From contig CM059432.1 in NCBI GenBank assembly GCA_030390025.1, positions 61,878,001 through 61,942,000 of the forward strand: 64,000 nucleotides of DNA, read 5' to 3'. The position numbers and the translations under genes are program-made. Positions 1,311 through 57,639 of this stretch are shown piece by piece. The first letter of the stretch is position 1. Each line of letters begins with the position of its first letter. Origin of the DNA: Squalus acanthias (Eukaryota). The notes below the pieces were generated by a model. The model was not told the origin of the DNA, ran no database searches, and worked only from the letters and a program-made list of their open reading frames with translations.

Positions 1311-1682
1311 TAGGGTCGCCAACTCTGGTTGGATGTATTCTGGGTCGTTTCATCACATGACCTCTAACCACCCCACGCTCTCGCCACTGGTCACCCAACA
1401 CGTCCATCCTACCAGTGCACCACTTTACTATGCCACTTAGAAAGCGAACAGACTTTTTGTTAGTCAATTGGATGACTCTTGACTGTCAGTCAAACAGCCT
1501 TTTTTCCCCATCTCTGATATTTTTATAACTATTAAACAAAAGTGTTCAAATAAAATTTTAAAAAACACAATATTTTTTAATGCCCCTATAACTTTTCTTC
1601 AAGATTGCTTGCAGCAGTGTCCTGGAGATTAATCTTCAATTTCTGGAGACTCTAGGACAATCCTGGAGGGTTGGCAACCCGA
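1311..1682. mobile_element. hAT (Tip100-like) non-autonomous element
   Basis: Imperfect TIRs tagggtcgccaac / gttggcaacccga; degraded 8-bp flanks gcaggaac / ataggaat. Confidence 0.6.
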
Positions 1683-1874
1683 ATAGGAATGAACTCAGAT
1701 GATGCTGATCCCTTGGTTAACCTGGGTCTCCTTAACCACTATGATTGCTGGTGGAACTATTATTGTTGGTGACAATTTAAATCACGATGTGGGTGAGGGG
1801 AAGATAGCTCCTAAGAGTTAAACATGATTCCATTATGGAAAGAAATATAGTTTAGTAAAAACAGCATGTTATCA

Positions 1875-2408
1875 CCTGTCATTTGAATTCTTCAGCCCAC
1901 TCTGTTCTCAGTTGTCTACAGTGTTCCAATGAAGCTCAACGTAAGCTCGAGGAACAGCATCTCATCTTTCTTTTACAGCCTTCCAGACTCAACATCGAGC
2001 TCAACAATTTCAGATCATAACCTCTGCCCCCATTTTTTCGGACGGCAGCTGCTGCTGATGATTCTGCTATTGTCATTTACACCTCCTCTAGACCCATCTT
2101 TTGTTTCTTTCCTTGTCCCATTACCATCTCCTTTCACATTGCACCATCGTCCCTTTTGTCATTTAATCGCTCCTGCCTTCCACCCCATCACAGACCTTCC
2201 TTTTGTTTTTCCTCCCCTTCCCCCTTTCCCCACCTCAGTACTTGCTTAAAACCTGTCACATCTCTAACCTTTTCCATTCTGATGAAAGGTCATCGACCTA
2301 AAACGTTAACACTGTTTCTCTCTCCACCTATGCTGCCTGACTTGCTGAGTATTCCCAGCATTTTCTGTTTTTATTTCAGATTTCCAGCAGCCACAGTATT
2401 TTGTTTTG
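1875..2408 (+). mobile_element. Penelope-like element 3' remnant (GIY-YIG C-terminus plus terminal repeat)
   Basis: Degenerate coding QCSNEAQRKLEEQHLIF..LQPSRLNIELNNFRS*, then a terminal segment that recurs inverted at 21950-22085 and carries a hammerhead-like core. Confidence 0.7.
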
Positions 2409-2779
2409 GTATTGATGTTATGGGTGCTGCCCTATTTCATCGTCTGAACAAAACGGCTCCCCGGTATAAAACCAGATGCTTAATCATATTTAGACAACTA
2501 TGTTTAATGTTTAACTGTTAGATAAATGATGCTTTAATTATCTGATCAATTTCATAGTTTCTGCGATAAGACGGTGCATTTTTTATTGTTTCTAGTTTTC
2601 TACTACACATATATACGCAATATACAATACATAGCTCTTTGTTCTTGTAACATCTTCACGTATGCAACAACAAAAAAAAAACAAGCGTTGGCAGGTGTTT
2701 AATGGTTGCAGCTTCTTCTCCAGAGAGAGACAGGGTGGAGCTAAGCGTACCCTGCAACACACACACACATATTCTAGTC

Positions 2780-3820
2780 ACAAAAGCAGAGCGCGGCAGG
2801 GAAGGGGCGCGCCACGTGACGTTCTCTCACATTCCCCGGGCGGGTGCGCGAGTGAATGGGTGCACGTGAGGCGGGAGAGAATTCGCGGTGGTTCCTGAGC
2901 CGGGGAAGAATCACCATGGAAACGGCGCGGGCGAGTGAGCGTGCGGCTTCCCTGAGCGCTGAGTGGTGGGCGCGGCACCGGGTGCCTGTTGTTCCTCTCA
3001 GTCACCACTGCCGGCACCCGGCTTCTGAGGAGAGGAGAGGAGCGGAGCAGAGCATTACTACCACCACCCCCAAACCTTCACATATTAACCATCTGCAATA
3101 TTTCGCTCGTCTTTTTTTTTTGAAACCCATATAACATATTTTGAAAGTGGGACGAGAAGAAACCTGTTTTGGTTTGATTATTCCTTAATTATCTGCCCTC
3201 CCCGCAGCCAGTTAAGCGCAGTAAATTTACCAAAATTAAGAGCAATTCAAAAAAAATAAAGGGGCCCCACCCCAACTAAGCCCGTTCTTTGAAAGGATTT
3301 CTGTGTCTTAGACAAACACTGGTGCGAGATTTACAACAAAAAACAGTAAGTAAAATGCAGGGGGGTCTGTGCAGTGTGTCAGCGCGCGATTTAAGGGTGT
3401 TTGATCATTTTACAGACCGCAGTGTCCCCCCGCCCCCTCCATCACCCTCCCGTTTAAAGGCCGGAGTCAGGGTGTGTGTGCCCTGCCCGACCTGCCCAGT
3501 ACTCCCATCTCTAGGCCAGGCTGCTTTGTCATTCAGTGGGTGGGCGGCAGAAGCACTCGGGAGAATTGCGGCCTGATGTTTACTCGCAGCCGCATCTCGC
3601 CTGACAGCTGTGCCCTGCACAGGGAGGGAGGTGTTCAGGAGGAAATGCAAACGACCCCGTTAGGTACCGTCAGCATACAAAGACCAAGTCATAAATTGCG
3701 CGTTTACTGGGTTTCAAATTGTTAAAATGTTTAAAAAATTATCTTTACGAGTGTCCCTGCGTAGTTGTGGTCGGCGCGTTGCTGCGTGGGAGAACCGCAA
3801 ATGGAAACTTTTGAAAGTAA
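2780..3820 (+). promoter_or_regulatory. CpG island / candidate upstream promoter and non-coding first exon
   Basis: Abrupt CpG-rich, repeat-free segment; CACGTG E-boxes at 2813 and 2863; X-box-like ATCACCATGGAAAC at 2910-2923; GTAAGT donors at 3346 and 3817. Confidence 0.7.
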
Positions 3821-6480: not shown

Positions 6481-9400
6481 TCATGTAGAAGAGGTGGGCA
6501 AGGGCTTTAAACTAATGAAGGGGGGGTGGGAGGCTTCAGGAAAGAGTAAATTTAAAAGCAGCGAGTGAAATGTCAAGGCTCTAGAGCAGAGTAGAGTTTT
6601 GGGTAAAAATAAGCAGAATGGGTCAGGAAGGGACAGAGTAACAAAGGTAATAAGGCATCAGTGACTAAGGTGACAGCAGGGAAAAATAGAAATAAGTCAA
6701 AGCTAAAGGCACTATATCTGAATGTGCGAAGCATTTGCCACAAAATAGATGAATTAATAGCACAGATAGAAATTAACAGGTTTGATCTAATAGCTATAAC
6801 GGAGACGTGATTGCAAAGTGGCCAAGGTTGGGAACTAAATATTCCAGGATACTTAACTTTCGAAGATATCGGCAAAATGGAAAAGGAGGAGGGGTAGACC
6901 TGATAAAGGATGGGATAAAGACAGTAGAGAGAAAGGATCTTAGCTCCGAAAATCAAGAAGTAGAATCAGTTTGGGTGGAGCTAAGAAACAGCAAGGGGCA
7001 GAAAACATTGGTGGGAGTTGTTTATAGGCCCCCAAACAGTAGTTGTAGTGGAGGGCAGAGTATAAATCAGGAAATTAGAGGCGCATGTAACAAGGGTAAT
7101 ACAGTAATCATGGGGGACTTTAATCTACATATAGACTGGGCAAACCAAATTTGCAGTAATAGCGTGGAGGACGAATTCATGGAATGTATGCAAGATAGTT
7201 TTCTAGATCAGTGTTGAGGAACCAACTAGGGAACAGGCTATTTTAGATCTAGTATTTTGCAATGAGAAAGGGTTAATTAATAACCTTGTAGTAAAGGGGC
7301 CTTTAGGGAAGAGTGACCATAATATGATAGAATTTTATATTGAGGTTTGAAAGTGATTTAGTTAAATCCGAAACTAGGTCTTAAATCTAAACAAAGCAAA
7401 CTATATAGGTATGCGGGGCGAGTTGGCTACGGTAAATTGGGAAACTACATTAAAAGGCATGACGGTAGACAAGCAATGGCTAGCATTTAAAGAATTAATA
7501 CATAATTTACAACAAATATACATTCCTTTAAGGCACAAAAACCCCACAGGAAAAGTGGTCCAACCGTGGCTAACAAGAGAAGTTAAAGATAGTATTAGAT
7601 CAAAGGAAGAGGCTTGTAATGTTGCCAAAAAGAGTAGTAAGTAAGCCTGAGGATTGGGAGGATTTTAGAATTCAGCAAAGTAGGACCAAGAAATTGATAA
7701 AGAAAGGGAAAATAGAATATGCGAGTAAACTAGCGAGAGACGTTAAAACAGACTGTAAAAGCTTCTATAGGTATGTAAAAAGGAAAAGATAAGCAAAAGT
7801 AAATATGGGTCCCTTACAGTCTGAGACGGGAGAAATTATAATGGGGAATAAGGAAATGGCAGAGAAATTAAACAAATATGTTCGTGTCTGTCTTCACGGA
7901 AGAAGACGCAACTTCCTGGAAATAGTGGAGAACCAAGGCTCTAGCGAGAATGAGGAACTGAAAGAAATTAGTATTAGTAAAAAAATAGTACTGGAGAAAT
8001 TAATGGGAGTGAAAGCCGATAAATCCCCTGGACCTGATGGCCTACATCCTAGGATTTTGAAGGAGGTGGCTATAGAGATAGTGGATGCATTGGTTGTCAT
8101 CTTCCAAAATTCCATAGATTCTAGAACGGTTCCCGCGGATTGGAAGGTAGAAAATGTAACCCCACTATTTAAGAAAGGAGGGAGAGAGAAAACGGTGAAC
8201 TACAGACCAGTTAGCCTGACATCAGCAGTAGTAGGGAAAATGCTAGAATCTATTAGTAAGGACGTGGTAACAGGGCACTTAGAAAACAATAATAGGATTG
8301 GGCAGAGTCAATACGGATTTTTGAAAGGGAAATCATGTTTGACGAATCTGTTCGAATTTTTTGAGGTTGTAACTAGCAAAATAGATAAGGGGGAACCAGT
8401 GGATGTGGTGTATTTGGATTTTTAGAAGGCATTCGATAAGGTGCCACACAAGAGGTTATTAAACAAAATTAGGGCTCATGGGATTGGGGGTAATATACTA
8501 GCATAGATTGAGGATTCGTTAATGGACAGAAAACAGAAAGTAGGAATAAACGGGTCATTTTCGGGTTGGCAGGCTGTAACTAGTAGGGTACCGCAAGGAT
8601 CAGTGCTTGGGCCTCAGCTATTCGCAATCTACATCAATGATTTGGATGAGGGGATCAAATGTAATATATCCAAGTTTGCTGATGATACAAAGCTGGGTGG
8701 GAATGTAAGTTGTGAGGAGGATGCAAGGAGGCTTCAAGGGGATATGGACAGGCTAAGTGAGTGGGCAAGAACATGGCAAGTGGAATATAATGTGGAGAAA
8801 TGTGAAGTTATCCACTTTGGTAGGAAAAATAGAAAAGCAGAGTATTTTTTAAATGGTGAGAGATTGGGAAATGTTGGTGTTCAGAGGGACCTGTGTGTCC
8901 TTGTACATGAATCACTGAAAGTTAACATGCAGGTACAGCAAGCAATTAGGAAAGCAAATTGTATGTTGGCCTTTATTACAAGAGGATTTGAGTGTAAGAG
9001 TCAAGACGTCTTACTGCAGTTATATAGGGCCCTGGTGAGACCACACCTGGAGTATTGTGTACAGTTTTGGTCTCCTTACCTAAGGAAGGATATACTTGCC
9101 ATAGAGGGAGTGCAATGAAGGTTCACCAGACTGGTTCCTGGGATAAGGGGTTTGTCCTATGAGGAAAGATTGAGTAGACTAGGTCTATATTCTCTAGCGT
9201 TTAGAAGAATGAGCGGTGATCTAATTGAAACATACAAAATTCTTACAGGGCTTGACGGGGTAGTTGCAGGGAGCATGTTTCCCCTGGCTGGGGAGTCTAG
9301 AACCAGGGGTCACAGTCTCAGAATAAGGGGTCGGCCACTTAGGACTTGAGATGAGGAGAAATTTCTTCACTCAGAGGGTGGTGAATCTTTGGAATTCTCT

Positions 9401-10542
9401 ACCCCAGAGGACTGTGGAGGCTCAGCCGTTGCATATATTCAAGACAGAGATCGATAGATTTTTGAATATAAGGGAATCAAGGGATATACCACTTTGGATA
9501 CTGTTGTTGGGGGGGGGGGGGGGGGATGACTTATCAGGGGAAGGCAGCAGCAGCTAACTTCCTGGCACCATGTGTGGTTCTGCTGCACAGGCTGGGAGGA
9601 AAAAGTGTAGAAGAGCTATAGTGATAGGGGACTCAATTGTAAGGGGAATAGATAGGTGTTTCTGCGGCCGCAAACGAGACTCCAGGATGGTGTGTTGCCT
9701 CCCTGGTGCAAGGGTCAAGGACGTCTCGGAGCGGCTACAGAACATTTTGGAGGGGGAGGGCGAACAGCCAGTTGTCGTGGTGCACATAGGCATCAACGAT
9801 ATAGGTAAAAAACGGGATGAGGTCCTAAAAGCAGAATATAGGGAGTTAGGAGGTAAATTTAAAAAATAGGACCTCAAAGGTAGTAATCTCAGGATTGCTA
9901 CCAGTGCCACGTGCTAGTCAGAGTAGAAATAGGAGGATATTTCAAATGAATACGTGGCTAGAGGAATGGTGCAAGGGGGAGGGATTCAAATTCCTTGGAC
10001 ATTGGAACCGGTTCTGGGGGAGGTGGGACCAGTACAAACGGGACGGTCTGCACCTGGGCAGGGCCGGGACCGAGGGGAAGTGTTTGCTAGTGCTGTTGGG
10101 GAGGGTTTAAACTAAAGTGGCAGGGGGTTGGGAACCTGAGCAGGGAGACCGAGGAAAGGGAAACAAGGATAAAAGCAAAAGACAGGAAGGAGAAAAACAA
10201 AAGTAGAAGGCAAAGAACTCAACGGTTTAAATCAAACATGGTCACAGTAAATAATAATTCATATAGGTCTGAGAGCATTAAAAAAACAAGCCTGATGGCT
10301 TTGTGTCTTAATGCAAGGAGCATTCGGAACAAGGTGGATGAATTAGCTGCGCAAATAGAGGTAAATGAATACGATTTGATTGGGATTACAGAAACATGGC
10401 TCCAGGGTGGCCAAGGCTGGGAACTCAACATCCAGGAGTATTCAACATTTAGGAAAGATAGGCAAAAAAGAAAGGGAGGTGGGGTAGCATTGCTGGTTAA
10501 AGAGGGGATTAACACAATTGAAAGGAAGGATATTAGCTCTGA

Positions 10543-10907
10543 AGAAATTTCTCCTCATCTCCATACTAAATGGCCTACCCCTCATTCTGTGACTGTGGCC
10601 CCGTGTTCTAGATTCCCCAGCCAGGGGAAACATTTTCCCAGCATTAACCCTGTCAAGCCCCTTAAGAATTTTATATGTTTCAATTAGATCACCTCTCATT
10701 CTTCTAAACTCTAAGGAATATAGACCTAGTCTACTCAATCTCTCTTCATAGGGCAATCCCCTCATCCCAGGAACCAGTCCAGTGAACCTTCGCTGCACTC
10801 CCTCTAAGGCAAGTATGTCTTTCCTTAGGTAAGGAGACCAGAACTATACACAGTACTCCAGGTGTGGCCTCACCCATGCCCTGTATAATTGTAGTAAGAC
10901 TTCTTTA
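10543..10907 (-). mobile_element. Inverted internal CR1 ORF2 fragment between 117-bp direct repeats
   Basis: ORF 10442-10798 (-) QRRFTGLVPGMRGLPYEERL; lacks a CR1 3' tail. Confidence 0.9.
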
Positions 10908-11839
10908 CAACATCCAGGGGTATTCAATATTTAGGAAAGATAGGCAAAAAAGAAAGGGAGGTGGGGTAGCATTGCTGGTTAAAGAGGGGATTAACACAAT
11001 TGAAAGGAAGGATATTAGCTCTGATGATGTGGAATCTGTATGGGTAGAACTGAGAAATAACAAGGGGCGGAAAACGTTAGTGGGAGTGGTATATAGACCT
11101 CCAAACAGTAATACGGAGGTTGGGGACGGCATTAAAAGGGAAATTAGAGAAGCATGCAGTAAGGGCACAGCAGTAATCATGGGTGACTTTAATTTACATA
11201 TAGATTGGGCTAACCAAATTAGTAAAAATACTGTGGAGGAGGAATTCCTAGAATGTTTACAGGATGGTTTTCTGGAACAATGTGTCGAGGAACCAACCAG
11301 AGATCAGGCCATCTTAGACTGGGTATTATGTAACGAGAAAGGATTAATTAGCAATCTTGTTGTACGAGGCCCCTTGGGTCAGAGTGATCATAATATGATA
11401 GAATTCTTCATTAAGATGGAGAGTGAAGTAGTTGAATCAGAGACTAGGGTCCTGAATTTAAATAAAGGAAACTACGATGGTATGAGGCGCGAATTGGGTA
11501 GGCTTGATTGGGGAATGTCACTCAAAGGGTTGACGGTGGATAGGCAATGGCAAACATTCAAAGACTGCATGGATGAACTACAGAATTTGTTCATCCCAGT
11601 GTGGCATAAGAATAAAACAAAAAGGGTGACTCAACCGTGGCTAACAAGGGAAATTAGGGATAGCATAAGATCCAAGGAGAGGGCATATAAATTGGCCAGA
11701 AAAAGCGGTAGCCCTGAGGATTGGGAGCAGTTTAGGATTCAACAAAGGAGGACAAAGGGATTAATTAAGATGGGGAAAATAGAATATGAAAGTAAGCTTT
11801 CAGGGAACATAAAAACTGACTAAGAGCTTTTATAGTTAT

Positions 11840-13579
11840 GTGAAGAGAAAAAGATTAGTGAAATCAAGTGTGGGTCCCTTGCAGTCAGAAGCGGGGGAAG
11901 TTATAATGGGGAACAAAGAAATGGCAGACCAATTAAATGCATATTTTGGTTCTGTCTTCACAAAGGAGGACACAAATAACCTCCCAGAGATGTTGGAGAA
12001 CATAGGGTCTGATGAAAGGGAGGAACTGAAAGAAATCAGTATTTGCAGGGAAATGGTGTTGGGGAAATTGATGGGATTGAAGGCCGATAAATCCCCAGGG
12101 CCTGATAATCTACATCCTAGGGTACTTAAGGAAGTGGCCCTAGAAATAGTAGATGCATTGCTGATCATCTTCCAACATTCGATGGAATCTGGAACTGTAC
12201 CCATGGATTGGAGGGTAGCTAATGTTACCCCACTATTCAAAAAGGGTGGTAGAGAGAAAGTGGAGAATTACAGACCGGTAAGCCTGACATCGGTAGTGGG
12301 GAAAATGCTAGAGTCCATTATAAAGGATGTAATAGCTGAGCACTTGAAAAACAGTGACAGGATCGGACAAAGTCAACATGGATTTACAAAAGGTAAATCG
12401 TGCTTGACTAATCTACTGGAATTTTTTGAGGATGTAACTGGGAAAATAGATAAGGGAGAACCAGTAGATGTGGTGTATTTGGACTTTCAAAAGGCTTTCG
12501 ATAAGGTCCCGCATAAGAGATTAGCGTGTAAAGTTAAGGCACATGGGATTGGGGGCAAGGTATTGACTTGGATAGAGAACTGGTTGGCGGACAGAAAGCA
12601 GAGAGTAGGAATTAATGGGTCTTTTTCCGAGTGGCAGGCAGTGACTAGTGGGGTACCGCGGGGATCGGTCCTTGGACCCCAGCTGTTCACAATATACATT
12701 AATGATCTAGATAAGGGAACTAAATGTAATATCTCCAAGTTTGCAGATGACACAAAGCTGGGTGGACGTGTGTGCTGCAAGGAGGATACCGAGAAACTCC
12801 AGGATGATTTGGACAGGTTGGGTGAGTGGGCAGAAGCGTGGCAGATGCAATATAACGTGGATAAATGCGAGGTTATCCACTTTGGTGTCAAAAACAGAAA
12901 GACAGACTATTATCTGAATGGCAATAGATTGGGAGAAGGGGAAGTGCAACGAGACCTGGGTGTCCTTGTGCACCAGTCGCTGAAGGTAAGCATGCAGGTG
13001 CAGCAGGCGGTTAAGAAGGCAAATGGTATGTTGGCCTTCATAGCGAAAGGGTTTGAGTATAGGAACAGGGATGTCCTGCTGCAGTTGTACAGGGCCTTGG
13101 TGAGACCACACCTTGAGTACTGTGTGCAGTTTTGGTCGCCTTCTCTGAGGAAGGATGTTCTTGCCATGGAAGGAGTTCAGCGAAGATTCACAAGGCTGAT
13201 ACCTGGGATGGCAGGAATGACATATGAGGAGAGATTGGGTCGATTGGGCTTATACTCGCTGGAGTATAGAAGAATGAGAGGGGATCTCATCGAAACATAT
13301 AAAATTCTGACAGGTCTGGACAAACTAGATGCAGGAAGGATGTTCCCGATGGTCGGAGAGTCCAGAACCAGGGGTCATAATCTAAAGATAAGGGGTAAGC
13401 CATTTAGGACAGAAATGAGGAAGAATTTCTTCACCCAGAGAGTGGTGAACCTGTGGAATTCTCTACCACAGAAGTTAGTTGAGGCCAAGTCATTAAATAT
13501 ATTCAAGAATGAGTTAGATATATTTCATAAAGCTAAAGGTATCAAGGGATATGGGGAGAAGGCAGGTACAGGGTACTGA
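11840..13579 (+). CDS. CR1 ORF2 reverse transcriptase domain, open to its natural stop (transposon-encoded)
   Basis: 579 aa with NYRPVSLTS, YLDFQKAFDKV, GSVLGP and FADD motifs; separated from the endonuclease part by a frameshift near 11820. Confidence 0.9.
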   Translation: MKRKRLVKSSVGPLQSEAGEVIMGNKEMADQLNAYFGSVFTKEDTNNLPEMLENIGSDEREELKEISICREMVLGKLMGLKADKSPGPDNLHPRVLKEVALEIVDALLIIFQHSMESGTVPMDWRVANVTPLFKKGGREKVENYRPVSLTSVVGKMLESIIKDVIAEHLKNSDRIGQSQHGFTKGKSCLTNLLEFFEDVTGKIDKGEPVDVVYLDFQKAFDKVPHKRLACKVKAHGIGGKVLTWIENWLADRKQRVGINGSFSEWQAVTSGVPRGSVLGPQLFTIYINDLDKGTKCNISKFADDTKLGGRVCCKEDTEKLQDDLDRLGEWAEAWQMQYNVDKCEVIHFGVKNRKTDYYLNGNRLGEGEVQRDLGVLVHQSLKVSMQVQQAVKKANGMLAFIAKGFEYRNRDVLLQLYRALVRPHLEYCVQFWSPSLRKDVLAMEGVQRRFTRLIPGMAGMTYEERLGRLGLYSLEYRRMRGDLIETYKILTGLDKLDAGRMFPMVGESRTRGHNLKIRGKPFRTEMRKNFFTQRVVNLWNSLPQKLVEAKSLNIFKNELDIFHKAKGIKGYGEKAGTGY

Positions 13580-13884
13580 GTTTGGATGATCAGCCATGAT
13601 CTCATCGAATGGCGGAGCAGGCTCGAGGGGCCGAATGGCCTACTCCTGCTCCTATCTTCTATGTTTATGTTTCTATGGATATGGGGATCGTGCAGGAAAG
13701 TGGAGATGAGGTAGAAGATCAGCCATGATCTTACTGAATGACGGAACAGGCTCGAAGGACCAAATGTTCTTATGGATCCGTGGAAGCTCCAGAAGTGACG
13801 GTGCAGGGGTGGGAAAAGCGGTAATTTCTGGAGATACTCAGGTTACGATTTGATAGGTCCCACTGAGCTGGACAACAGAGCAAA

Positions 13885-19774: not shown

Positions 19775-21799
19775 ATCTCAAATATAATGCACTAAGTCCA
19801 TAATGGGTAACTTTTGAACAAGTGTTATGGCCTTTTCTGTTTTGCAAAACAAAGTCCTTGCTACTGGCAGAGTGAACTCAATAGGTTTTGTATTCATGTA
19901 CCATTTTTGTTATTAGTATGTTGATTGGAATAGAAATTTGATATGTATCTCGTGTTACGGAGTCCTTCATTTGACCATCACAGAACTCGCACTGAACTTT
20001 CATTTAAAAATAAAGTGAGCACCATCTACATATTGTAACAATGGGAGTCTTGCTGTGGTAACCTTCAAGTGCCAAAGTAACTTTATAAATGGCCTGGAAT
20101 ATATTCAAAAAGCTGTGGGCATCTGGGAACTGACTAATTTAGTTGTGTATTTGTGTTTCAGACACCTTTCCACTTGTCAATTGAAATTTTAAGGAATGAA
20201 ACTGCTAATTATGGTGCTCAAGTCCAATAACTTTTACAAATGTTTTGTAGGCTTTTACTTCTGCTTGAGAATGTTTTAAAAAAAAAAAATTGAACATGCA
20301 TTTCTGTGAATCATGCAATATTCTTTTAAGTAACCTTTACACACTAGGTCTAAAGACTTCCATGAATGCTTCTGAGGAAACCATGTACATAGCATGCATA
20401 TGAAAATGTCATGCCATCGTAGATAAGTGTTGCAGCTAAAGGCTTCCTACTACCATGTTTTCTAAAACCACAGGATGTGTGCTATTGCACCAGTTAGTTT
20501 TCCTCAGCTAAGAAGATTGCGTTCTCTGCTTCCACATTACAACTTGTGCTGATGAACTGCGACAAAGTCTTTTATTTGTCATCGAGTAGATTAGTTTAAA
20601 TAGTCCGCATATAGTCTAATATATTTCCAAAACAGCTAGTTCATGTTTTCTTTTGCAGGATTTTTATTCCCAGAATCAGCAGCTGACAAACTTGTAGAGC
20701 CATTATCAGCAAAAACGTTGCTGTCTTTATTCAGCTACGTATACAAATTAAACAAAGAAAAGTAAAACAGTTTGCAAGCTCTGTTTTACCCATATTGTAT
20801 GGCAGCAATCATCAACCAATGCCATGTTCTCCAGGTGGTCACACAAAAATAAGCAAAAACAACCAAGAGCAAAACTAAAGCACAAAAGTGAAATCTAGCA
20901 TGCCATACAAAAGGGTAAAGTCTGGAATCCTGCATTCCCACTGGGGAGCATTATAACGAGCGTGCAGGTCAGAAGTATGACTACAACATTAACGCTGATC
21001 TCCAACTTGTATTTCCCATCAAACGAAACTCCCCACTGAGTACAGGATCACTGAACAAACACGAGAGTGTGTATTCCTAGTGTGGCTGTTGTCATTGAGT
21101 ACTTTTGGTAATGGACTGTATGACATCCCCCCCCCACCCATGCAAATCCATTCATACTCTGGCAGATTCATTTAAACGCGTGCTCCCTCTTCCAGGATTC
21201 CACTTAAGACTGTCCCAATCAGATCACAGATGATTGGAAACTGGACTTCTCGGGCAGGGAGAAATATGACAGTTTTAAAAACTCCGAGGGCAGCTTTCTA
21301 GAATAAAGTTCCATTTTAGAGGAGTTTAATGCATGGGGCTGTCCGAGCCCCACATGTACTTGTCCCATTTGTAAAGTAGAAACCTTCTCGTTCTCCCATA
21401 GATTACACTTAGTAGTGGTGGTATTGCTAGTGTGTATTATTGAACTATAATCAATATTTTTATAATTTTTTGGTGAGGGAGAAATGAGAAGGCTGCAACT
21501 AAAAAGATGAAAAAGAGAGACCATTAAAATGGAGGGAGAAGAGAAGAAGCAAATCAACAAAATTGATGAACACAAAAATATTAATTATTTAAAACAAAGT
21601 GGGCTCTTCAGATGAAGATAACTTGCCATCATATACTTTGGAAATGATTATATCATCACTATTCTTTCCAAATGCTAGGCATGATCAGAGTCTATTGGAG
21701 AGTGTTCCTTTCCCCTCAACCCATTGTTAGAGAATTTATTCAGACTCCCACACCGCAGCATGAGACCTAGGATCAAGATATTCTGGTCCTCTGTTGGAT

Positions 21800-22935
21800 C
21801 TATCCTTGGCGCCCCCATCTATTTCTCATCTACATGCTGCCCCTCAGTGACCTCATCAGAAAACACAACGTCGGGTTCCACATGTACACTGACGACACCC
21901 AGCTCTACCTCACCACCACCTCTCTCAACCCCTCCACTGCCTCTAAATTCAAAAGCAAAATAATGTGGATGCTGGAAATCAGAAATAAAAACAGAAAATG
22001 CTGGAAATACTCAGCCGGTCAGGCAGCATCTGTGGAGAGAGAAACAGAGTTAACGTTTCAGGTCAATGACCTATCGTCAAACTGTCTCTGAATTGTTTGA
22101 CTGGTTGTCCGACATCCAATACTGCTTGAGCAGAAATTTTCTCCAACTAAATACTGGGAAGGTCCCCGCCACAAATTCCGTTCCTTAGCCACCGACTCCC
22201 TCTCTCCCTGGCTGAAGGCTGAACCAGATTGTTCGCAACCTTGGTGTTGTATTTGACCCCGAGATGAGCTTTTGACCACATATCCGCACCATCATGAAGA
22301 CTGCCTATTTCCATCTCTAATATCGCCAGACTCCACCCCTGCCTCAGCTTATCCTTGCCTTTGTTACCTTAAGACTTGACTATTCCAATATACTCCTGGT
22401 CGACCTCCCATCTTCCACCCTACATAAATTTGAGTTCATCCAAAATTCTGCTGCCCGTGTCTTGACTTGCACCAAGTCCCATTCACCCATCACCCCAGTG
22501 TTCACTGACCTACATTGGCTCCTGGTTAAGCAACGGTTTAAAAAAAAAAAAAAAAAAATTCTCATCCTTGTTTTCAAATCCCTCCATAGCCTCACCCCTC
22601 CCTATCTCTGTAACCTCCTCCAGCCCTACAATCTTCCAAAATTTCTGCGTTCCTCCAATTCTGACCTCTTGAGCATCCCCGATTTTAATCACTCCACGGT
22701 TGGCGGCCGTGCCTTCAGCTGCCGAGGCCCTAAGCTCTGGAATTCCCTCCCTAAACCTCTCTGCCTCTCTTTCCTCCTTAAAACCTACCTCTTTAACCAA
22801 ACTTTTGGTCACCTGTCCTACTATATCCTTATGTGGCTCCGTGTCAAATTTTTGATAACGCTCCTGTGAAGCGCCTTGGGACGCTTTACTATGTTTCAAG
22901 GCACTATATAAATACAAGAAGTTGTTGTTGTTGTT
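21800..22935 (+). mobile_element. L2 LINE 3' fragment
   Basis: [25 protein letters not shown] and GPKLWNSLP motifs; (gtt)n tail. Confidence 0.85.
21950..22085 (-). mobile_element. Short Penelope-derived terminal-repeat insertion with hammerhead-like motif
   Basis: Inverted homologue of 2275-2408, inserted in the L2 between ctctaaatt / ctctgaatt. Confidence 0.75.
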
Positions 22936-23680
22936 GCTGCTGCTGGTACATCTAAAACTTCCAGTGAAGCTCCAGCATACCAAAAATAGTGGGGAACCAA
23001 GGGGCTAATAAGATTGCGGAACTTAAAGTAATTAATATCAGTAGAGAAAAAGTACTTGAGAAACTAATGGCACTAAAAGCCAACAAATCCGCATGACCTG
23101 ATTGCCTACGTCCTAGGGTTCTAAAAGAGGTGGCTGCAGAGATATTGGATGCATTGGTTGTGATCTTCCAAAATTCCCTAGATTCTAGAATAGTCTCAGC
23201 GGATTGGAAGGTAGCAAATGTAACCTCGCTATTCAAGAAAGGAAGGAGAGAGGAAACAGGGAACTACAGGCCAGTTAGCCTGACAACAGTTGTCGGGAAA
23301 ATGCTGGAATCCATTATTAAGGAAGTGATAACAGGGCACTTAGAAATTACTGTAATATGATTAGGTAGAGTGAACATGGTTTTATGAAAGAGGAATCGTG
23401 TTTAACAAATTTATCATTTTGAGGATGTAACTAGCAGGGTAGATTAAGGGGAACCAGTGATTGTAGCATATTTGGAGTTCAAAAAGGCATTCGATAAGGT
23501 GCCACATAAAAGGTTGCTACGCAAGGTAAGGGCTCATGGGGTTGGGGGTAATATATTAGCATGTATAGAGGATTGGTTAATGGATAGAAAACAGAGTAGG
23601 GATAAACAGGTTATTTTCAGGTTGGCATGCTGTAACTAGTGGGGTGCCACAAGGATCAGTGCTTGGGCCTCCGCTATTTA

Positions 23681-24034
23681 CAGGAAACTCTTTATTAACC
23701 GGGACCGGCGTGGTGCCGGTTAATCAAAAAGTCCGGATAATGGAGAGTTATATCTCCCAACGTACGAGAGCCCCGTACACATTGACATGCGCCTGCATTC
23801 GGAGCTCCGTCTCCCCGGGGACCGCCAGCTGACCATCTGTCGTGTCCGCTGCCTACCCGGGCTGCACATTCCCCTCCCAATCTACACGCTCCGATACAAG
23901 GCAAATGCCTCGGTTTTTTTTTTAAGTTAATTTTAAACGAGAGATGAAGGAAAACCCCGGTTACCTACTCTCAAATTTTGCCGGTTAAGAGAGATTTCCG
24001 GATATTTGGGTGCCGGTTAATAAAGAGTTTCCTG
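23681..24034. mobile_element. Tc1/mariner-pogo type MITE, 354 bp
   Basis: Perfect 22-bp TIR CAGGAAACTCTTTATTAACCGG; TA duplication at 23679-80 and 24035-36; removing it restores the CR1 sequence ctatttacaatctat. Confidence 0.95.
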
Positions 24035-24743
24035 TACAATCTATGTTAATGACTTGGATGAAGGGACCGAGTGCAATGTATCCAAGTTTGCTGACGATAC
24101 AAAGCTAGGTGGGAAAGTAAGCTGTGAGGAGGACACGCAGAGCCTGCAAGGGGATATAGACAGGTTAAGTGAGTGGGCAATAAGGTAGCAGATGGAGTGT
24201 AATGTAAGGAAATGTGAGGTTATTCACTTTGGTAGGAAGAATAGAAAAAGAGAATATTTTTTTAAATGGTGAGAAACTGTTAAATGTTGGTGTCAGAGAA
24301 TTAGGTGTCCTCATACAGGAAATGCAAAGTTAGCATGCTGGTACAGCAACCAATTAGGAAGGCTAATGGCATGTTGGCCTTTATTGCATGGGAGTTGGTG
24401 TACAAGAGTAAGGAAGTCTTACTACAATTGTACAGGGCTTTGGTGAGACCACACCTGGAGTACTATACACAGTTTTGGTCTCCTTATCTGAGAAAGGACT
24501 TATGCCTTGGAGGCGGTGCAACGAAGGTTCACTGGATTGATCCCTGGGATGAGATGGTTGTCCAATGAAGAGAGATTGAGTAGATTTGGCCTATACTCTC
24601 TGGCGTTTAGAAGAATGAGAGGTGATCTCATTGAAACATACAGGATTCTGTAGGGAATTGACAGAGTAGATTGCAGAGGTTGTTTTCCCTGGCTGGAGAG
24701 TCTAGAACTAGGAGGCATAGTCTCGGAATAAGGCCATTTAAGA

Positions 24744-25178
24744 AAGAAAGACTTGCATTTATATAGCGCCTTTCACGATCACTGGACGTCTCTAAGTGCT
24801 TTACAGCCAATGAAGTACTTTTGAAGTGGAGTCACTGTTGTAATGTGGGAAACATGGCAGCCAATTTGCACACAGCAAGGTCCCACAAACAGCAATGTGA
24901 AAATGATCAGATAATCTGTGTTTGTTATGGTGGTGGAAGGCAGGACACCGGGGATAACTCCCCTACTCTTCTCCGAAATAATGCCATGGGATCTTTTACG
25001 TCCACCTGAGAGAGTAGACGGGGCCTCGGTTTAACTGCACCTCCAACAGTACAGCACTCCCTCAGTACTGCACTGGAGTGTCAGCCTAGCTTTATGTGCA
25101 CAAGTCCCTGGAGTGGGACTTGAACCCACAACCTTCTGACTCAGGCGAGTGTGCTACCAACTGAGCAACAGCTGATAC
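24744..25178 (-). mobile_element. Deu-domain tRNA SINE, near full length
   Basis: Reverse complement of the 787-1243 family; TSD TTTAAGA at 24737-24743 and 25179-25185. Confidence 0.9.
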
Positions 25179-25502
25179 TTTAAGACTGAGATGAGGAGGA
25201 ATTTTTTCACTGAGGGTTGTGAATCTTTGGAATTCTCTACCCCAAAGGGCTGCAGATGCTGAGTCGTTGAGTATATTCACGGGTGAGATAGATAGATTTT
25301 TGGACTCTAGGTGAATCAAGGGATATGGGGATCGGGCGGGAAAGTGTAGTTGATGTAGAAGATCAGCCATGATCCTCTTGAATGGCGGGGGAGGCTCGAA
25401 GGGCTGTATGGCCTACTCCAAATTCTTATGTTCTTGTTCTTATGTTATGTTCTGGTGATACATTTTAATACAAAGGGTCTCTGGCAATCCAGTTGAGAAT
25501 CT

Positions 25503-34600: not shown

Positions 34601-34692
34601 GTGTTGATGCCTTTTGGCACACTATCAAACTTCAGTGATTGCAAATCCCACACCAGCAGTATGTGATGTATTTTTTGCCTGACCACACCAGA

Positions 34693-35235
34693 ACAACAGC
34701 AACTTGCATTTATATAGCACTTTAACACAGGAAAATGTACCAAAGTACATCACAGGAGCATTATCACAAAATTTGACACTGAGCCACATGAGGAGATATT
34801 AGGACAGATGTTCATAGAGGTAGGTTTTAAGGAGCATCTTAAAGGAGAACAGAGAGGCGGAGAGGTTTAGGGAGCCCATTCCAAAGTTTGGGGCCTAGAC
34901 AACTGAGGGCACAGCCGCCAATGGTGGAGCGATGAAAATTGATGTGCAAGAGGCCAGAAGTGGAGGAATGCAAAGTTCTCGGTGGGCTGTCAGCTGGAGG
35001 AGAAAGGGAGGGGCAAGGCCATGGAGGGATTTGAGAACAAGGATGAGAATTTTAAAATTGAGGTATTGCCAGACCAGGAGCCAATATAGGTCAGTGAGCA
35101 CAGGGGTGATGGGTAAATGGGACATGGTGCGAGTTAGGAAAAGGGCAGCAAAGTTTTGGATGAGCTAAAGTATTCGGAGTGTGCAAGGTGAGAGGCCCTC
35201 CACGAGAACATTGGCATAGTCAAGTCTAGTGGTAA
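34693..35235 (-). mobile_element. L2 LINE 3' end
   Basis: PITPVLTDLYWL..FKILILV motif and an L2 tail. Confidence 0.8.
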
Positions 35236-36762
35236 CAAAGGCATGGACATTGAGCCAAAGGAGATACTAGTAAGTCTGAGATGGATTTTAAGATGATTCT
35301 TAAAGGTTGAGAAGGGTGTGGAGGTGCTGAGAGGAATTCCATAGCATGGGGTCCAATAAGCTGGAGGTATGGCTGCCAATGGTAGGTTAATGCAAGGTGG
35401 CGGGTGCAGAGCACTAAAATCAATTTAATAGTGAGCCAGTACTTTGGTTTATTGCCTCTTTTATGACCATAGTGTGAAGGCTGGCATACCTGATCTGGTT
35501 GGCTGGCCTGGCTGTTAAGAGGCTGGCAATGTTTACGGTATGATTTCTAGCTTCCTCCTCTTGTGGGTTGAGTAGGGTAGCTCTCTCATCCATGATACCG
35601 TCAAACAGTACTGCAGCCTCAAACATCTAACACCAAGTGACCAGAGCCCTGGACTGCCAACATGCAGGTTTGCAATTACAGCTCCCAGCATCACCACACC
35701 TGCCGTGTTGCCACTCGCCTATTGTTATGGGACCTCAACTTCTCCTCCATCAAGTTAGAAAATCTGCACTGGCATGGATTTAAGTAGAAGTTTGCACTGA
35801 GCCATTTCTACTGTCTTCTTGTTCAGTTTGTGCTCTAATGGCAAGATGGTTGGCAAACTTTGGAATTCAGTCCATGAACTTTAATGAGGAATGTACAAAC
35901 ACCACACTGCTATAACTAGTACCCATGGGTTTGCTATCTCCATAGCTCTAAATTAGAGTCCGCCCATGCAAGATGGTAAGATTGTAGTTGGGTGATCAGC
36001 CTCTCCCAAGTGTGATTGCTGTTTATCTGGCCTCTAATTTTTTGACCTTCCAAGCATGGTGGTCACGCTGGAAGCTAGGCTATCACTCTTCAGGTCGTGG
36101 AGGAGTGCAAGCACTTTCTTCATATCTTGGTTACAGTCAAGAAGGAGCATGCACTTATAGTGGATGTGTGATGTTAATGTTAGAACTCATCCACAAATTG
36201 GGAACTTGTCTCAGTTGTGGGGGAATTTGGTTCTTTTTATCTTTTTGTACGAGCAGGTAAAGAGGGGAGAGGTCCCAGATTAAACTTGACGGTGGGATAA
36301 CTAGTTTGTTCTAGGACAAGAAAAGACTAATTTTTGACTCCAATTCTATTAAAAAGCCCATGTCTAATTTGTTATGGTATTATTCAAGATGATACAGGGA
36401 GTAGCCAGGTTTGTTGACTGGTGGTAAAGGAATTGGGTGCTGCAATAATGCTGTTGTGATTTATGTTGTACATTAAGCCATTTATGTTGGACCCATATAC
36501 ATTTGCCTTGATTGTGCTCTTGCATCATATGGGTTTCAGCAATCTGAAAGCTTGTGGGTATTAAATTTATGTTGGATTGGTATGAGCACTAATTTTCAAT
36601 GTTGGTTGAATTTTTTGGGTGTGTATGATTGCTTAAGCAGCATTGAAGGACATTAATTCTGCAGTGGTTGATAATTGTGCATAGTACTGAAGTCTTGGGA
36701 CAGATTTCAAGTTGTAATTTTAGATGTGGCATTTGAACATGGTGGTTTCTGCCATATTTAAT

Positions 36763-38197: not shown

Positions 38198-38513
38198 AAC
38201 TCTGCATTCCTCCAATTCTGGTCTCTTGTGCATCCCCGACTTCCTTCGCTCCACCATTGGCAGTCGTACCTTCATCTGTCTAGGCCCTAAGCTCTGGAAT
38301 TCCCTCCCTAAACCTCTCTGCCTCACCACTCCTCTCTTCTCCTTTTAAGATGCTCCTTAAAATCTACTTCTTTGACCGAGCTTTTGGTCATCTGTCCTAA
38401 TTTTTCCTCTTTTGGCTCGGTGTCGATTTCTTTGTCTGATTACATTCACGTGAAGCGCCTTGGGGTGTTTTACTATGTTAAAGGTGCTTTCTAAATGCAA
38501 GTTGTTGCTGTTG
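38198..38513 (+). mobile_element. L2 LINE 3' end
   Basis: Matches 22645-22935. Confidence 0.85.
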
Positions 38514-39957
38514 TGTATATATGTGGTACAAAATTAAATTAGCAATTTCAGGCAAATGTATATGAATCAGTAACGCGGCAAAAATTGTTGAAAACTTTGA
38601 TGTGGTAATTAAGTGATTCATTTTATTGCAGTAATGGGGCGCATGGGGATGGATGTACTAAACAGTAGGTCTTTGTGTCTAAGCATTAGAGGGCTTGTTG
38701 TCATCAAAAATATGTTGGAGCCTTTGTATTTAAATAACCGTTCTGTGTCCCAGCAGTACCAATAGAGGCAGTGATTAGTTTTCTCTCGTTTTTGTGTTAT
38801 TTTGTATGAAGCCTTATACAAATAGCCAGAGCATTACATTAAGATTCACTGGTTTTCTTAATCCTGCAATAGGGTAAGTTATAATTTTCTATTAGCTAAA
38901 GCGTCATTAATGTGTTGCATTGTTATGGAAATTATGATATCAGTGGATGCCATTTTCTGTATTATGGCATTTATGTTGAAAAAACTTCTCGATACATTCC
39001 TACTGTGTTTCCCCCCCCAAAAAATCTTTTGGTTGTACTACATGTATTGATGTGGGTTGGTTTATGTGACTCACATATACCGACCTATATAGCCTCTAGA
39101 ACATGCTCCATTTTTATTGATTGTCCTGAGTTTCAGGGGGAAAATGTTTCTTGTTTCTTGTGTAAAATGTAACTGCCACAGAAGGTTCCAAATGAGAATA
39201 TTGTTAGGGATGGGATTCAAAAACTTACAGCTCTGAAGGAAGCAATGGTGGGAAGAGATATTTGTAAAAAAATAAATAAATGGACAAGCAAAACCTGAAC
39301 TAATGTCTAAATATAGGTACCAGAGGATCTATGTTTGCTCATTTCTGGAAGTTGCTTGACTCCAGTAGCTTGATAAGAAAGATAGCCAGGAGACCCAGCA
39401 CATTGAAGTAACAGCACAGCATGGTGGAATGTTCCACCTTGGAAGGGAAAACTGCTTTAAGAACACATACCTTCTGTTGAGGATTAAGGACTGTCATTGT
39501 TGAAGGACTAGTCAACAGGGCAGTCAAATCTGCTCAGTCAGTTTATGGAGATTGTTTATTGAGGAGTGGCTTTTGTCGAGATTAAGAGGAGAAAAATTCA
39601 GGATTTAGAAAGAAAATTAATTCTGCTTTTTTTGGAAAAGAATGTCCCCAGCAGAAAGGGTGTTTTAGTCCTCTTTGTACTTTAGAGTTTTCTTAAAACA
39701 CTACTGATACCTATAGACATGTTTTGATTGCAAAGCTTATAAAATTTGAACTTGAGTATTGTAGTGCATAACTGGATTCTGGGGTTCCCCCATTGGTTTA
39801 ACAAGTAGCTAAGTTGTGGAGTAGGAAGGATCCAGGTTCATTCCCTGTCTGCTGAGCTAGCTGACCTCGTTGGAGCAGCACTGCAATTGGCCTTAGCACG
39901 GGGTAGTGAAGGGAAAATTGAATAGGATTCTGAATGCTATCCAGCAATCCCTGTTTT

Positions 39958-44294: not shown

Positions 44295-45247
44295 CATTAT
44301 GACTTGGATTTGGGTGTACAGGGCACAATTTCGAACTTTGCAGATGACACAAAACTTGGAAGTACAGTAAGGAGGATAGTGATAGACTTCAAGAGGACAT
44401 AGGCTGGTGGAATGGGCGGACACGTGGCAGATGAAATTTAATGTAGAAAAGTGCGAAGTGATACATTTTGGTAGGAAGAACGAGGAGCGGCAATATAAAC
44501 TAAAGGGTACAATTCTAAAGGGGGTGCATGAACAGAGAGACCTGGGGGTATATGTGCACAAATCGTTGAAGGTGGCAGGGCAGGTTGAGAAAGCAGTTAA
44601 AACAGCATATGGGATCCTGGGCTTCATAAATAGAGGCATAGAGTACAAAAGCAAGGAAGTTATGATGAACCTTTATAAAACACTGGTTCGGCCTCAACTG
44701 GAGTATTGTGTCCAATTCTGTGCACCGCACTTTAGGAAGGATGTGAAGGTCTTAGAGAGGATGCAGAAAAGATTTACGAGAATGGGTTCCAGGGATGAGG
44801 GATTTCAGTTACGTGGATAGACTAGAGAAGCTGGAGTTGTTCTCCTTGGAGCAGAGAAGGTTCAGAGGTAATTTGATAGAGGTGTTCAGAATCATGATTG
44901 GTCTCGACAGAGTAGATAGAGAGCAACTGTTCCCATTGGCGGTAGGGTCGAGAACCAGAGGGCACAGATATAAGGGGATTGGCAAAAGAACCAGAGGCAA
45001 CATGAGGAAAAACTTATTTGCGCAGCAAGTGGTTAGGATCTGGAATGCACGGCCTGAAAGGGTGGTGGAGGCAAATTCAATTGTGGCTTTCAAAAGGGAG
45101 TTGGATAAGTACCTGAAGGGAGAAATTTTTTTTTAGGGCTACGGGGAAAGGGCGGGGGGAGTGGGACTAGCCGAAGTGCTCTTGCAGAGAGCCGGCATGG
45201 GCTCGACGGGCCGAATGGCCGCCTTCTGTGCTGTAACCATTCTATGA
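44295..45247 (+). mobile_element. CR1 3' fragment
   Basis: FADDTKL and WQMKFNVEKC motifs plus the 3' UTR. Confidence 0.9.
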
Positions 45248-45789
45248 TAAAGAAAAATGCCTGGAAGGTTAATCCTTCCAGAGCTTTAAATCTATTATGT
45301 GCTTGAGACAAAGGGATCAAATTTATATATAAAAGTCAGCAAGATGATCTTCCAAGAAACATCACTGTTCCATAAACAGTATTTGATGGCATATAGGCAA
45401 CTTAAGATTGTGTGTGATACCATTTTATGTTGAATAGCACTTGATTATAAAATGAAAAATTCTTAAAGTTGCTGTATACTCCGTGTATACTGTCATTTTT
45501 TGTTACCAATTTTACCTCCCCTTCTCCTGAAGGCATTGACTTTGCTGGGGTTTGGTTTCATGAAGGCTGTCCAGTACCTGAAAGGAGTGATCGTCCTTCA
45601 TGTGCAAATCTGGACAGTGAGTGTTGAATCACTATTCAAACAATGGGGGAATTACAGCCGCCCCAGATGCTGCTCTTGCTTGACATCCACAAATGAAAAG
45701 TTTGCAGCAAGATCACTGGATATAAATCAGGAACTGGAACCTTGGCTGATTTTCCTGTAACAGGGTTTCTGAGGCCAATTATAACTCAA

Positions 45790-52800: not shown

Positions 52801-52858
52801 GCTGGCCTTCCCCTGCCCGCTGGGTCTTGCTTAGGGCGGCGATGTCGAAACGTCTGAG
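49839..52858 (-). mobile_element. RTE-clade LINE, about 3 kb, frameshifted
   Basis: LLGDFNVRVG, TDHRL, QCGFRPLRGT, FDLAKAF and LQYADD motifs, C-terminal CPTC..H...H, GAA-type tail; TSD CATTTTTGT at 49830-49838 and 52859-52867. Confidence 0.92.
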
Positions 52859-56530: not shown

Positions 56531-57639
56531 CCTGTAGCTTTCATCCTTATCCTCACAGGTGGCAATACATTGTACCTGTTGGATAGGACCAGTGTTTGCA
56601 GGACCTCTTTCTTTGCCTCCCCGGGTTCCCCCTACCCTGCTGGCTGGCTGGCTGTGCTTTTCTCTGAGGTGTGACAACTCTGGAGAAAACTATCCAGATA
56701 TTCCTCCCCCTCCCTTTGTGTTTGAGTGTCCCTAACTCGCACTCCAGCTCAACAAGTGACTCAAGGCAGAGACATTTCCTGCAAATGTGGCAATCCAGGA
56801 CTGTCACTGACCACCAACTCTCACATATCACAGTCCCGACACACAGCCTGTGCTGTCATCTCTAATATTTATTTATTAGTTAGCAGTAATTTATATCTAG
56901 AACTAATAGAAGCATTTGAAGTCTATTATTAATCAGGGCCTCTGACCTGTTTAAGCCTCTGCCTTCCTCCAAGCTTTACCTCCAGCCTCTGACCTCTAGG
57001 CTCTGGCTCTGCCCAACCTGGCCCTGATGTTGTCAAAACAAATTGCCAGCTTTGGGTTTCTATGTTTGCTCCCTTCAACCCCATCCTTGTTTAACCTGTA
57101 CCACTGCTTTGAGGGTGGGGGAGACTTAGGGCCTTGAGCAGTGCTCCTTCTGGCCTCGCAGCCTGTCCAACCTGCTAATTTAAGCCCATCCTTGCTCTTT
57201 GATGTCTTCAAAAAAACATATTTTTCAATTAAACTTTGGGCCTTGAATCTTGCTTCCTCCAATCCTGCCCCTACTCACCTTGTTCTGATAACCCATAAAA
57301 AATGTGAAATTTCTGGCCTCTAGCCCTGTCATAAGAACATAAGAAATAGGAGCAGGAGTAGGCCAGCCTCCTTTGCCACTGTTCACAGCCTTTGTTTGAA
57401 TTTTTTTTTAATTGGACATCTCCCTAGTTCCATTCAGGAGGGCTGCATCCTATAATCTTTGCCATTTCCAAGCAGTAAACTCAGAATTTGACAACTTGTT
57501 TGAAGGGTTTATGATGCATTGTTTTATAGATGGTGCTATGAGGCCTTTAAACAAATTACTGATCTCTTGGTTTACTGGTTGGAAACAATATTTCAAGGTA
57601 TCTTGCTGTGGAGGGAGATAGGGTAGTTAACTAGGGGAG

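What the first reader, a model, noticed from the sequence alone, without database searches (positions are those of the whole stretch)
2275..2311. Minimal hammerhead-ribozyme-like motif in a Penelope terminal repeat (copy 1)
Seen: CTGATGA-aAGGTC-atc-GACCT-aAAAC-GTT-AAC downstream of a GIY-YIG remnant. Together with the copy at 22048-22084, the consensus is AGTT-CTGAYGA-[stem II AGGTC/GACCT]-GAAAC-GTT-AACT. Known: Penelope-like elements carry minimal type I hammerheads with a palindromic stem III. Inference: the family consensus is such a ribozyme, with AACGTT as stem III (needing a dimer) and an atypical GUU cleavage triplet. This copy has lost the G of GAAA and is probably inactive.
Basis: partly seen in the sequence, partly recalled or inferred. 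Interest (0 to 1): 0.7.

Follow-up and report, generated by a model that had tools for sequence, protein, structure and literature searches.

The report
Dead hammerhead relic in shark Penelope
This is a broken copy of a known kind of tiny self-cutting RNA motif that sits at the end of a very abundant, likely shark jumping gene; most copies of the family keep the catalytic letter that this copy has lost, so the intact form likely cuts weakly, but this copy is ordinary genomic debris.

Summary
The motif is real: 2279-2307, with a second copy at 22052-22080 on the minus strand (88% alike over 134 nt). It lies about 260 nt behind the broken C-terminal end of a Penelope-type GIY-YIG endonuclease whose named relatives are all elasmobranch.

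Public runs lay tens of thousands of related contigs here. Over 95% of their depth has G at 2300, so the family likely has a complete minimal type I hammerhead core and copy 1 carries G12A plus a shortened stem I. Copy 1 is very likely dead.

Dimer stem III is ACGU, not AACGUU. Copy 2 is broken too (no C3), and part of its stem I overlaps a 14-bp target duplication. The real oddity is A10.1-U11.1 in place of G-C.

Cleavage and covariation could not be tested; Rfam finds nothing. Penelope hammerheads are published, and this scan already holds 813 notes matching 'hammerhead Penelope' in this genome. Low interest.

The parts
1871..2020 (+). Broken C-terminal end of the Penelope-like GIY-YIG endonuclease ORF (two in-frame gaps, stop at 2018-2020); the only Penelope protein remnant in the window
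   Evidence: phmmer over 1.84 billion proteins: 6 hits at E<=0.001; alignment to P0018; tblastn of four long relatives finds no other place under E 0.3
2021..2413 (+). Pseudo-LTR / 3' terminal repeat of copy 1
   Evidence: Covered by tens of thousands of related contigs, depth falls to near zero after 2412; homology with copy 2 ends at 2413
2245..2251 (+). TATA-like A/T box 31 nt before the first base of stem I (candidate promoter element; inferred)
2275..2278 (+). Stem I 5' strand, damaged (one G missing against the family)
   Evidence: G insertion behind 2276 in 44, 26, 53 and 8 contigs and substitution rows 2275/2276; loose-end consensus ends in CAG at 2277 in all 8 runs
2279..2286 (+). Core strand CUGANGA plus the unpaired H nucleotide; N7 (2283) is T or C in the family
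   Evidence: 2283 T>C in 34-50% of depth
2287..2299 (+). Stem II, 5 bp with a 3-nt loop, closed by A10.1-U11.1
   Evidence: Pair probabilities 0.83-0.89 in copy 1 and 0.98-1.0 in copy 2 in 105-nt context
2300..2307 (+). GAAA strand with G12 changed to A (2300), palindromic C15.2-G16.2, triplet GUU; predicted cut after 2307
   Evidence: numbering as in PMC4209133
2308..2311 (+). Stem I 3' strand, damaged at 2311 (family T)
21950..22080 (-). Copy 2: 131-bp 5'-truncated terminal piece that begins within the first bases of the motif, lacks C3, keeps G12; inserted in an L2-like LINE fragment
   Evidence: L2 label recalled
21936..21949 (.). Left copy of the 14-bp target-site duplication of copy 2
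   Evidence: 12 of 14 identical; 2 of 2000 random spots score as well
22081..22094 (.). Right copy of the 14-bp target-site duplication; its four bases next to the insert match the family's first stem I letters (microhomology)

Best explanation
Positions 2275-2311 are a decayed, very likely inactive copy of the minimal type I hammerhead motif in the terminal repeat of a very abundant, likely Neptune-type Penelope-like retrotransposon of an elasmobranch, and the intact family form likely cuts its own RNA slowly after GUU, as a dimer or with help from the element's protein. Shown: the motif, its place behind a GIY-YIG ORF end, the family's majority letters, the lesions in both window copies, and a 14-bp target duplication around copy 2. 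Inferred: the element transcribes its terminal repeat; the RT-endonuclease protein binds the RNA, nicks DNA and copies the RNA from a site about 100-130 nt past the motif; most copies are 5'-truncated, leaving terminal pieces like these two, which then mutate neutrally. In the RNA, two motifs pair through ACGU to build stem III. A 4-bp A/U-rich stem I, A10.1-U11.1 and U17 would all make the cut slow. As in the anole element PAc, the cut may not be needed for insertion.
For: Layout matches the published consensus CUGANGAH-stem II-GAAAN-palindrome-NUH in every element except the 10.1-11.1 pair. 47,165, 26,064, 53,910 and 2,265 contigs laid in 4 of 4 runs; the majority restores G12 and stem I; the one common polymorphism listed in the core is at the free position N7. 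Upstream frame is homologous to elasmobranch RT + GIY-YIG proteins: 150 hits at E<=1e-5 among 7993 candidates scored, and all 12 listed rows that carry an organism name are sharks, skates or rays; 5 of 9 long hits that I picked have a Pfam GIY-YIG match, 1 of them above the curated cut-off. P0018 has a C-X4-C-X2-C linker before the nuclease, the Neptune/Nematis mark (PMC8557442 passages). G12A is a known near-null. PAc hammerhead cleaves only with protein, and its catalytic mutants still insert in vitro (PMC11167929).
Against: No Rfam hammerhead hit at E<=10 on the whole window or on either copy alone. Copy 1 folds no better than shuffles (z -0.67, 44 of 200); copy 2 does (z -3.1, 0 of 200), but as a rod in which the core strands pair with each other. 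No covariation shown. The T/C polymorphism at N7 can be plain CpG decay. The G10.1-C11.1 pair of 42 of 56 published rows is missing. One search showed only 40 of 140 variant rows, and one search left out three places that one search shows as common, so blank rows do not prove core conservation. The clade is read from relatives only 41-45% identical over about 55 residues.
Confidence: 0.75

Rival explanations
1. The family motif is hammerhead-derived but no longer cuts at all. It is kept as an RNA hairpin or protein-binding site, or simply carried along in the repeat.
For: Weak features (A10.1-U11.1, U17, 4-bp A/U-rich stem I, no loop III). The lowest-energy fold pairs the core strands. Copy 2 begins upstream of the predicted cut, so it came from uncut RNA. 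PAc mutants insert normally and no RNA-seq ends were found at its cut site. Naiad and most Chlamys elements lack hammerheads.
Against: The majority form keeps all invariant core letters that I could check. Published min-HHRs of this layout cleave weakly as dimers or trimers.
Confidence: 0.2
2. The stretch is mainly a promoter or splice signal (a pyrimidine tract ending in CAG just before the core) and the hammerhead likeness is incidental.
For: The family reads as a pyrimidine tract plus CAG right before the core (loose-end consensus). In D. virilis Penelope an intron ends at the start of helix I.
Against: A full min-HHR layout with at most one core mismatch was found once in 128 kb of both strands, at this very place. 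No GT..AG joint is listed: the joints ending at 2277 are marked 'between: not known' and occur in DNA runs too (15 of 211 joints shown). The branch-like CTAAC is only about 10 nt from the AG (too close by recalled rules). A signal role does not exclude a ribozyme.
Confidence: 0.04
3. Copy 1 itself is an active or domesticated ribozyme acting on the neighbouring host gene.
For: It lies about 470 bp before a CpG-rich, promoter-like stretch (2780-3060, CpG o/e 0.98).
Against: G12A, a 2-bp stem I, about 12% divergence from copy 2, and no same-strand partner in the window.
Confidence: 0.01

Closest known systems
Minimal hammerheads (min-HHR) in the terminal repeats of metazoan Penelope-like elements (Cervera and De la Pena 2014, PMC4209133; main text parts 1-2 of 4 and supplement parts 1-2 of 3 read)
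   Same: Type I layout, CUGANGAH core, unpaired base before stem II, no loop III with a palindromic C15.2-G16.2, short helix I, GUU triplet, place in the terminal repeat, mostly single 5'-truncated copies
   Different: A10.1-U11.1 instead of G-C (3 of 56 published rows have A-U, one from coelacanth); 3-nt loop II; no cartilaginous fish among the 56 rows; this copy is G12A
PAc, Poseidon element of Anolis carolinensis (Frangieh et al. 2024, PMC11167929; parts 1-2 of 4 read)
   Same: Terminal-repeat hammerhead; copies end roughly 100-130 nt past the motif; a model for protein-assisted cleavage
   Different: PAc is Penelope/Poseidon clade; relatives of this element carry the CX2-5CxxC linker of Neptune/Nematis. 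In PAc the ORF starts in stem II; here the first downstream ATG is at 2330 (untested as a start)
Vertebrate non-LTR retrozymes (Li, Clavereau, Pollet 2026, bioRxiv 10.64898/2026.07.22.740005; parts 1-2 of 5 and passages read)
   Same: Type I hammerheads tied to Penelope repeats, reported in the one chondrichthyan genome they sampled
   Different: Those are tandem arrays; the two copies here are 19.5 kb apart on opposite strands, and copy 1 is still attached to the ORF end
Penelope of Drosophila virilis (Schostak et al. 2008, PMC2377424; passages read)
   Same: Promoter in the terminal repeat upstream of the hammerhead; an acceptor-like CAG just before helix I
   Different: Its promoter is TATA-less, starts about 125 nt before the core and has an intron; here no intron is shown and a TATA-like box sits 31 nt before stem I

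Membership tests
min-HHR of metazoan PLEs (family majority form) | Invariant core CUGANGA ... GAAA ... NUH | tested here: met
   Window letters plus majority G at 2300 in 95.6-99.5% of depth; only 40 of 140 variant rows were shown
min-HHR of metazoan PLEs (copy 1 itself) | Invariant core including G12 | tested here: not met
   A at 2300. Copy 1 is filed as a relic, not as a working ribozyme
min-HHR of metazoan PLEs (copy 2 itself) | Invariant core including C3 | tested here: not met
   C3 missing
min-HHR of metazoan PLEs | Unpaired nucleotide between 9 and 10.1 | tested here: met
   A2286 in copy 1, T in copy 2
min-HHR of metazoan PLEs | Palindromic 15.2-16.2 with no or tiny loop III | tested here: met
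   C2304-G2305 in both copies
min-HHR of metazoan PLEs | G10.1-C11.1 pair (usual, not universal: 42 of 56 published rows) | tested here: not met
   A2287-T2299; G at 2287 in only 0.3-2.6% of depth. A-U occurs in 3 of 56 published rows, so this marks a variant rather than exclusion
min-HHR of metazoan PLEs | Short helix I (2-5 bp) closing the motif | tested here: met
   Family 4 bp from reads; 2 bp left in copy 1
min-HHR of metazoan PLEs | Located in the terminal repeat next to an RT/GIY-YIG ORF | tested here: met
min-HHR of metazoan PLEs | Compensatory changes in stems across subfamilies | tested here: inconclusive
   No genome held; pattern scans gave no relatives; read tables give no linkage
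min-HHR of metazoan PLEs | Self-cleavage as a dimer or with protein | not testable with these tools
   Needs a bench assay; the 8 runs laid were all contigs
Rfam hammerhead families | Covariance-model match | tested here: not met
   No hammerhead family among 5, 2 and 2 matches at E<=10; both copies are damaged and minimal
Neptune-type EN+ PLE | C-terminal GIY-YIG endonuclease | tested here: met
   ORF end 1871-2017 aligns to the C-terminus of P0018, P0054, P0055, P0063
Neptune-type EN+ PLE | CX2-5CxxC linker between RT and endonuclease | tested here: inconclusive
   Present in relatives P0018, P0054, P0055; that part is missing from the window copy; no RT tree was built
Non-LTR retrozyme | Tandem units, each with an intact hammerhead | tested here: not met
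   Two dispersed, opposite-strand, damaged copies

The most novel reading that the evidence does not exclude
The element's transcript starts at the first base of the hammerhead (TATA-like box at -31, initiator overlapping stem I). The ribozyme is then the first 33 nt of the RNA, and its cut removes only the capped leader: a slow, protein- or dimer-gated self-decapping switch between an RNA that is translated or copied and one that is destroyed or circularised, rather than a cutter of unit-length RNA from tandem transcripts. Short genomic copies like copy 2, which begins at that spot between 14-bp duplications, would be full reverse transcripts of the uncut RNA's 5' end. This reading is reused from earlier notes of this scan; here the promoter spacing and one copy fit, and the read-end test was inconclusive.
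Probability: 0.25. Interest if true: 0.5.

Novelty: new member of a known kind. Interest (0 to 1): 0.15.

Why it matters
As a single locus it matters little: a dead copy of a repeat that occurs twice in this window alone. The family adds an elasmobranch, A10.1-U11.1 example to a published class; searches for 'hammerhead ribozyme + Penelope + shark' (one incidental hit) and 'hammerhead ribozyme + Callorhinchus' (none) found no paper on shark Penelope hammerheads, though a 2026 preprint reports retrozymes in one chondrichthyan. What Penelope hammerheads are for is still open. A family this abundant would allow a strong genomic test of it: where copies begin relative to the motif and to the cut, and whether the core is conserved between subfamilies.

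Tried and rejected
Whole-genome analysis: no genome is held, so no genome-wide alignment, covariance model or end map was made.

Pattern scans for relatives gave none: metagenomes 117 loci and viral contigs 16 loci, with no nhmmer hit and one 26-nt blastn scrap among all 133; genome contigs 11 loci matching only the 20-27 bases around the pattern; viral contigs 0. The first word-based protein search found nothing and Pfam did not recognise the 52-aa remnant or the nuclease part of its six closest hits.

Expression: no RNA holder listed; X9 and X10 are only guessed to be RNA, so nothing is claimed about transcription.

5'-end pile-up at the motif start: 317 of 47,165 contigs in X1 have loose ends before 2277, but 441 do before 2330 and 583 behind 2389, and each of these three places adjoins a private difference of the window copy that clips alignments. 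Treated as inconclusive. Summed depth was not used as a copy number.

Intron before the motif: no clean joint. Target duplication for copy 1: none convincing, and no inverted partner piece. Dimer folding by ViennaRNA gives hairpin swaps, not the hammerhead fold, and cannot model the core. A look for the neighbouring host gene by short recalled motifs found nothing. Lunse et al. 2017 on Penelope hammerhead dimers is not held: seen only as a citation in PMC6765202 passages; its tables may list this variant. Supplements of the bioRxiv preprint were not seen and may hold the chondrichthyan motifs.

Full report
Observation. The quoted letters are at the stated place. A pattern for the motif matches at 2279-2307 (+) and 22052-22080 (-), and never in 100 shuffles. 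The two copies share 134 nt at 88%; blastn and nhmmer find no third copy in the window. A scan for the whole minimal-hammerhead layout with at most one core mismatch finds only copy 1 in 128 kb of both strands; copy 2 fails it. Rfam has no hammerhead match at E<=10 on the window or on either copy.

The host element. The frame 1862-2017 ends in a stop at 2018-2020. Pfam does not recognise it, but phmmer gives 6 hits at E<=0.001, 5 of them named as whale shark or skate proteins. A profile of these reaches 150 proteins among 7993 candidates scored; the 12 listed rows with organism names are all elasmobranchs. Of 9 longer hits that I chose from the 120 listed, 5 match Pfam GIY-YIG (1 above the cut-off) and 2 match RVT_1. 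P0018 has RT, a C-X4-C-X2-C linker and the nuclease, and its C-terminus aligns to the window frame with two gaps. That linker marks Neptune and Nematis elements (PMC8557442 passages), so the element is likely Neptune-type; the window copy is too short to show this itself. Copy 1 is therefore a 5'-truncated insertion of about 540 bp: ORF end, about 260 nt of repeat, motif, about 100 nt of tail.

The family form. No genome is held, so I laid public runs on the copy. In 4 of 4 runs (organisms A and B) 47,165, 26,064, 53,910 and 2,265 contigs align to 1900-2440; four more runs (organisms A, D, E, F) lay 3,716, 261, 4,406 and 3,650 contigs on 2256-2327. The repeat is very abundant, though summed depth is no copy number. 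In one search, G stands at 2300 in 95.6-99.5% and T at 2311 in 91.8-99.3% of depth, and position 2283 (N7) is C in 34-50%. Upstream, insertion rows, substitution rows and loose-end consensuses agree that the family has a G after 2276 that copy 1 lacks. Limits: only 40 of 140 variant rows were shown; one search listed minor variants only at 2287 and 2293-2297 and left out 2283, 2300 and 2311 for a reason I cannot tell, so its blanks are no evidence; the N7 change could be CpG decay; no linkage, so no covariation.

The two copies. Copy 1 has G12A and a stem I cut down to 2 bp. G12 is the general base, and G12A slows cleavage more than 500-fold in minimal and about a million-fold in full-length hammerheads (PMC2553840 passages). 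Copy 2 keeps G12 but lacks C3. It is a 131-bp piece between 14-bp duplications (12 of 14 alike; 2 of 2000 random spots do as well), and the four duplicated bases next to its 5' end equal the family's first stem I letters, so its 5' end lies within the first five bases of the motif, upstream of the predicted cut. Stem II forms in both copies. Copy 1 folds like its shuffles; copy 2 folds as a stable rod with paired core strands.

Comparison with the literature. Cervera and De la Pena (PMC4209133) defined this motif in Penelope terminal repeats, with no cleavage as monomer and low cleavage as dimer or trimer. By my hand count of their 56 aligned rows GUU is the commonest triplet (15; GUC 14) and 24 rows have U17, so GUU is ordinary here. 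The less usual feature is A10.1-U11.1 (3 of 56; G-C in 42). Stem III in the dimer is the ACGU palindrome; pairing A14 with U17 as well would be a competing, inactive extension (inference from the standard numbering). For the anole element PAc the hammerhead cleaves only when protein is present, catalytic mutants still insert in vitro, and copying starts about 111-118 nt into the ORF (PMC11167929). A 2026 preprint reports hammerhead retrozymes in one chondrichthyan. Searches found no paper on shark Penelope hammerheads; searches (listings only) added none. PMC6155905 and PMC6765202 were seen as passages.

Mechanism. Most likely the active element transcribes its terminal repeat, its protein binds the RNA, cuts DNA and copies the RNA from just past the motif, and incomplete copying leaves terminal pieces that decay. 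The intact motif likely cuts slowly after GUU when two motifs pair or the protein helps. The steps shown here are sequence-level only; transcription, cleavage and protein help are inferred from other elements.

Bolder reading. Earlier notes of this scan propose that the transcript starts at the ribozyme. Here a TATA-like box lies 31 nt before stem I and copy 2 begins there. But the pile-up of loose read ends at 2277 (317 contigs in X1) is matched by one at 2330 (441), and both adjoin private differences of the window copy, so my test does not decide it. D. virilis Penelope starts further upstream from a TATA-less promoter with an intron (PMC2377424 passages).

Verdict. Real, correctly recognised in outline, and ordinary: a dead relic of a known class. 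The scan has noted the like many times (813 notes fit the words in this genome; 466 findings in at least 32 genomes; none by sequence look-up). Interest 0.15.

Noticed in passing
window 2780-3060 and 3380-3800: CpG-rich, promoter-like stretches (GC 0.65 and 0.55, CpG o/e 0.98 and 0.83 against 0.36 for the window) with two CACGTG boxes and an ATG near 2916; likely the start of a host gene. Gene not identified.
   Followed up: partly
window 1311-1682: About 370 bp bounded by imperfect inverted ends of about 12 bp; looks like a small non-autonomous DNA transposon.
   Followed up: no
window 2314-2329 and 2362-2379: The tail of the repeat holds two pyrimidine tracts ending in CAG (acceptor-like), and an ATG at 2330 right behind the first; possible start of the element's ORF or a source of exonisation.
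   Followed up: no
window 2305-2310: A second 6-nt palindrome (GTTAAC) overlaps the stem III palindrome and spans the predicted cut site; in a dimer it could compete with the active fold.
   Followed up: no
window 7400-13700, 23000-25400, 44400-47500, 54700-60100 and others: Many dispersed, 60-90% alike LINE-like copies with RT-sized ORFs; CR1-type by recall.
   Followed up: no
window 49900-52830 (-): CpG-rich stretch with several long minus-strand frames; looks like a younger LINE, RTE-type by recall.
   Followed up: no
window 21740-22930, 34692-35247, 38201-38514: Related L2-like LINE fragments (label recalled); none of the other copies covers the site where copy 2 inserted, so no empty site could be compared.
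   Followed up: partly
proteins P0002, P0063, P0069, P0080, P0093, P0120: Several annotated elasmobranch proteins (e.g. neuromedin-U receptor 1, utrophin-like) contain this Penelope nuclease end: gene-model artefacts or exonised repeats.
   Followed up: no
L068 and L079 (around 1501-1559): Two metagenome loci share a hammerhead-core-like string with a 5-bp stem II and GUC but no stem I; probably chance or coding sequence.
   Followed up: no
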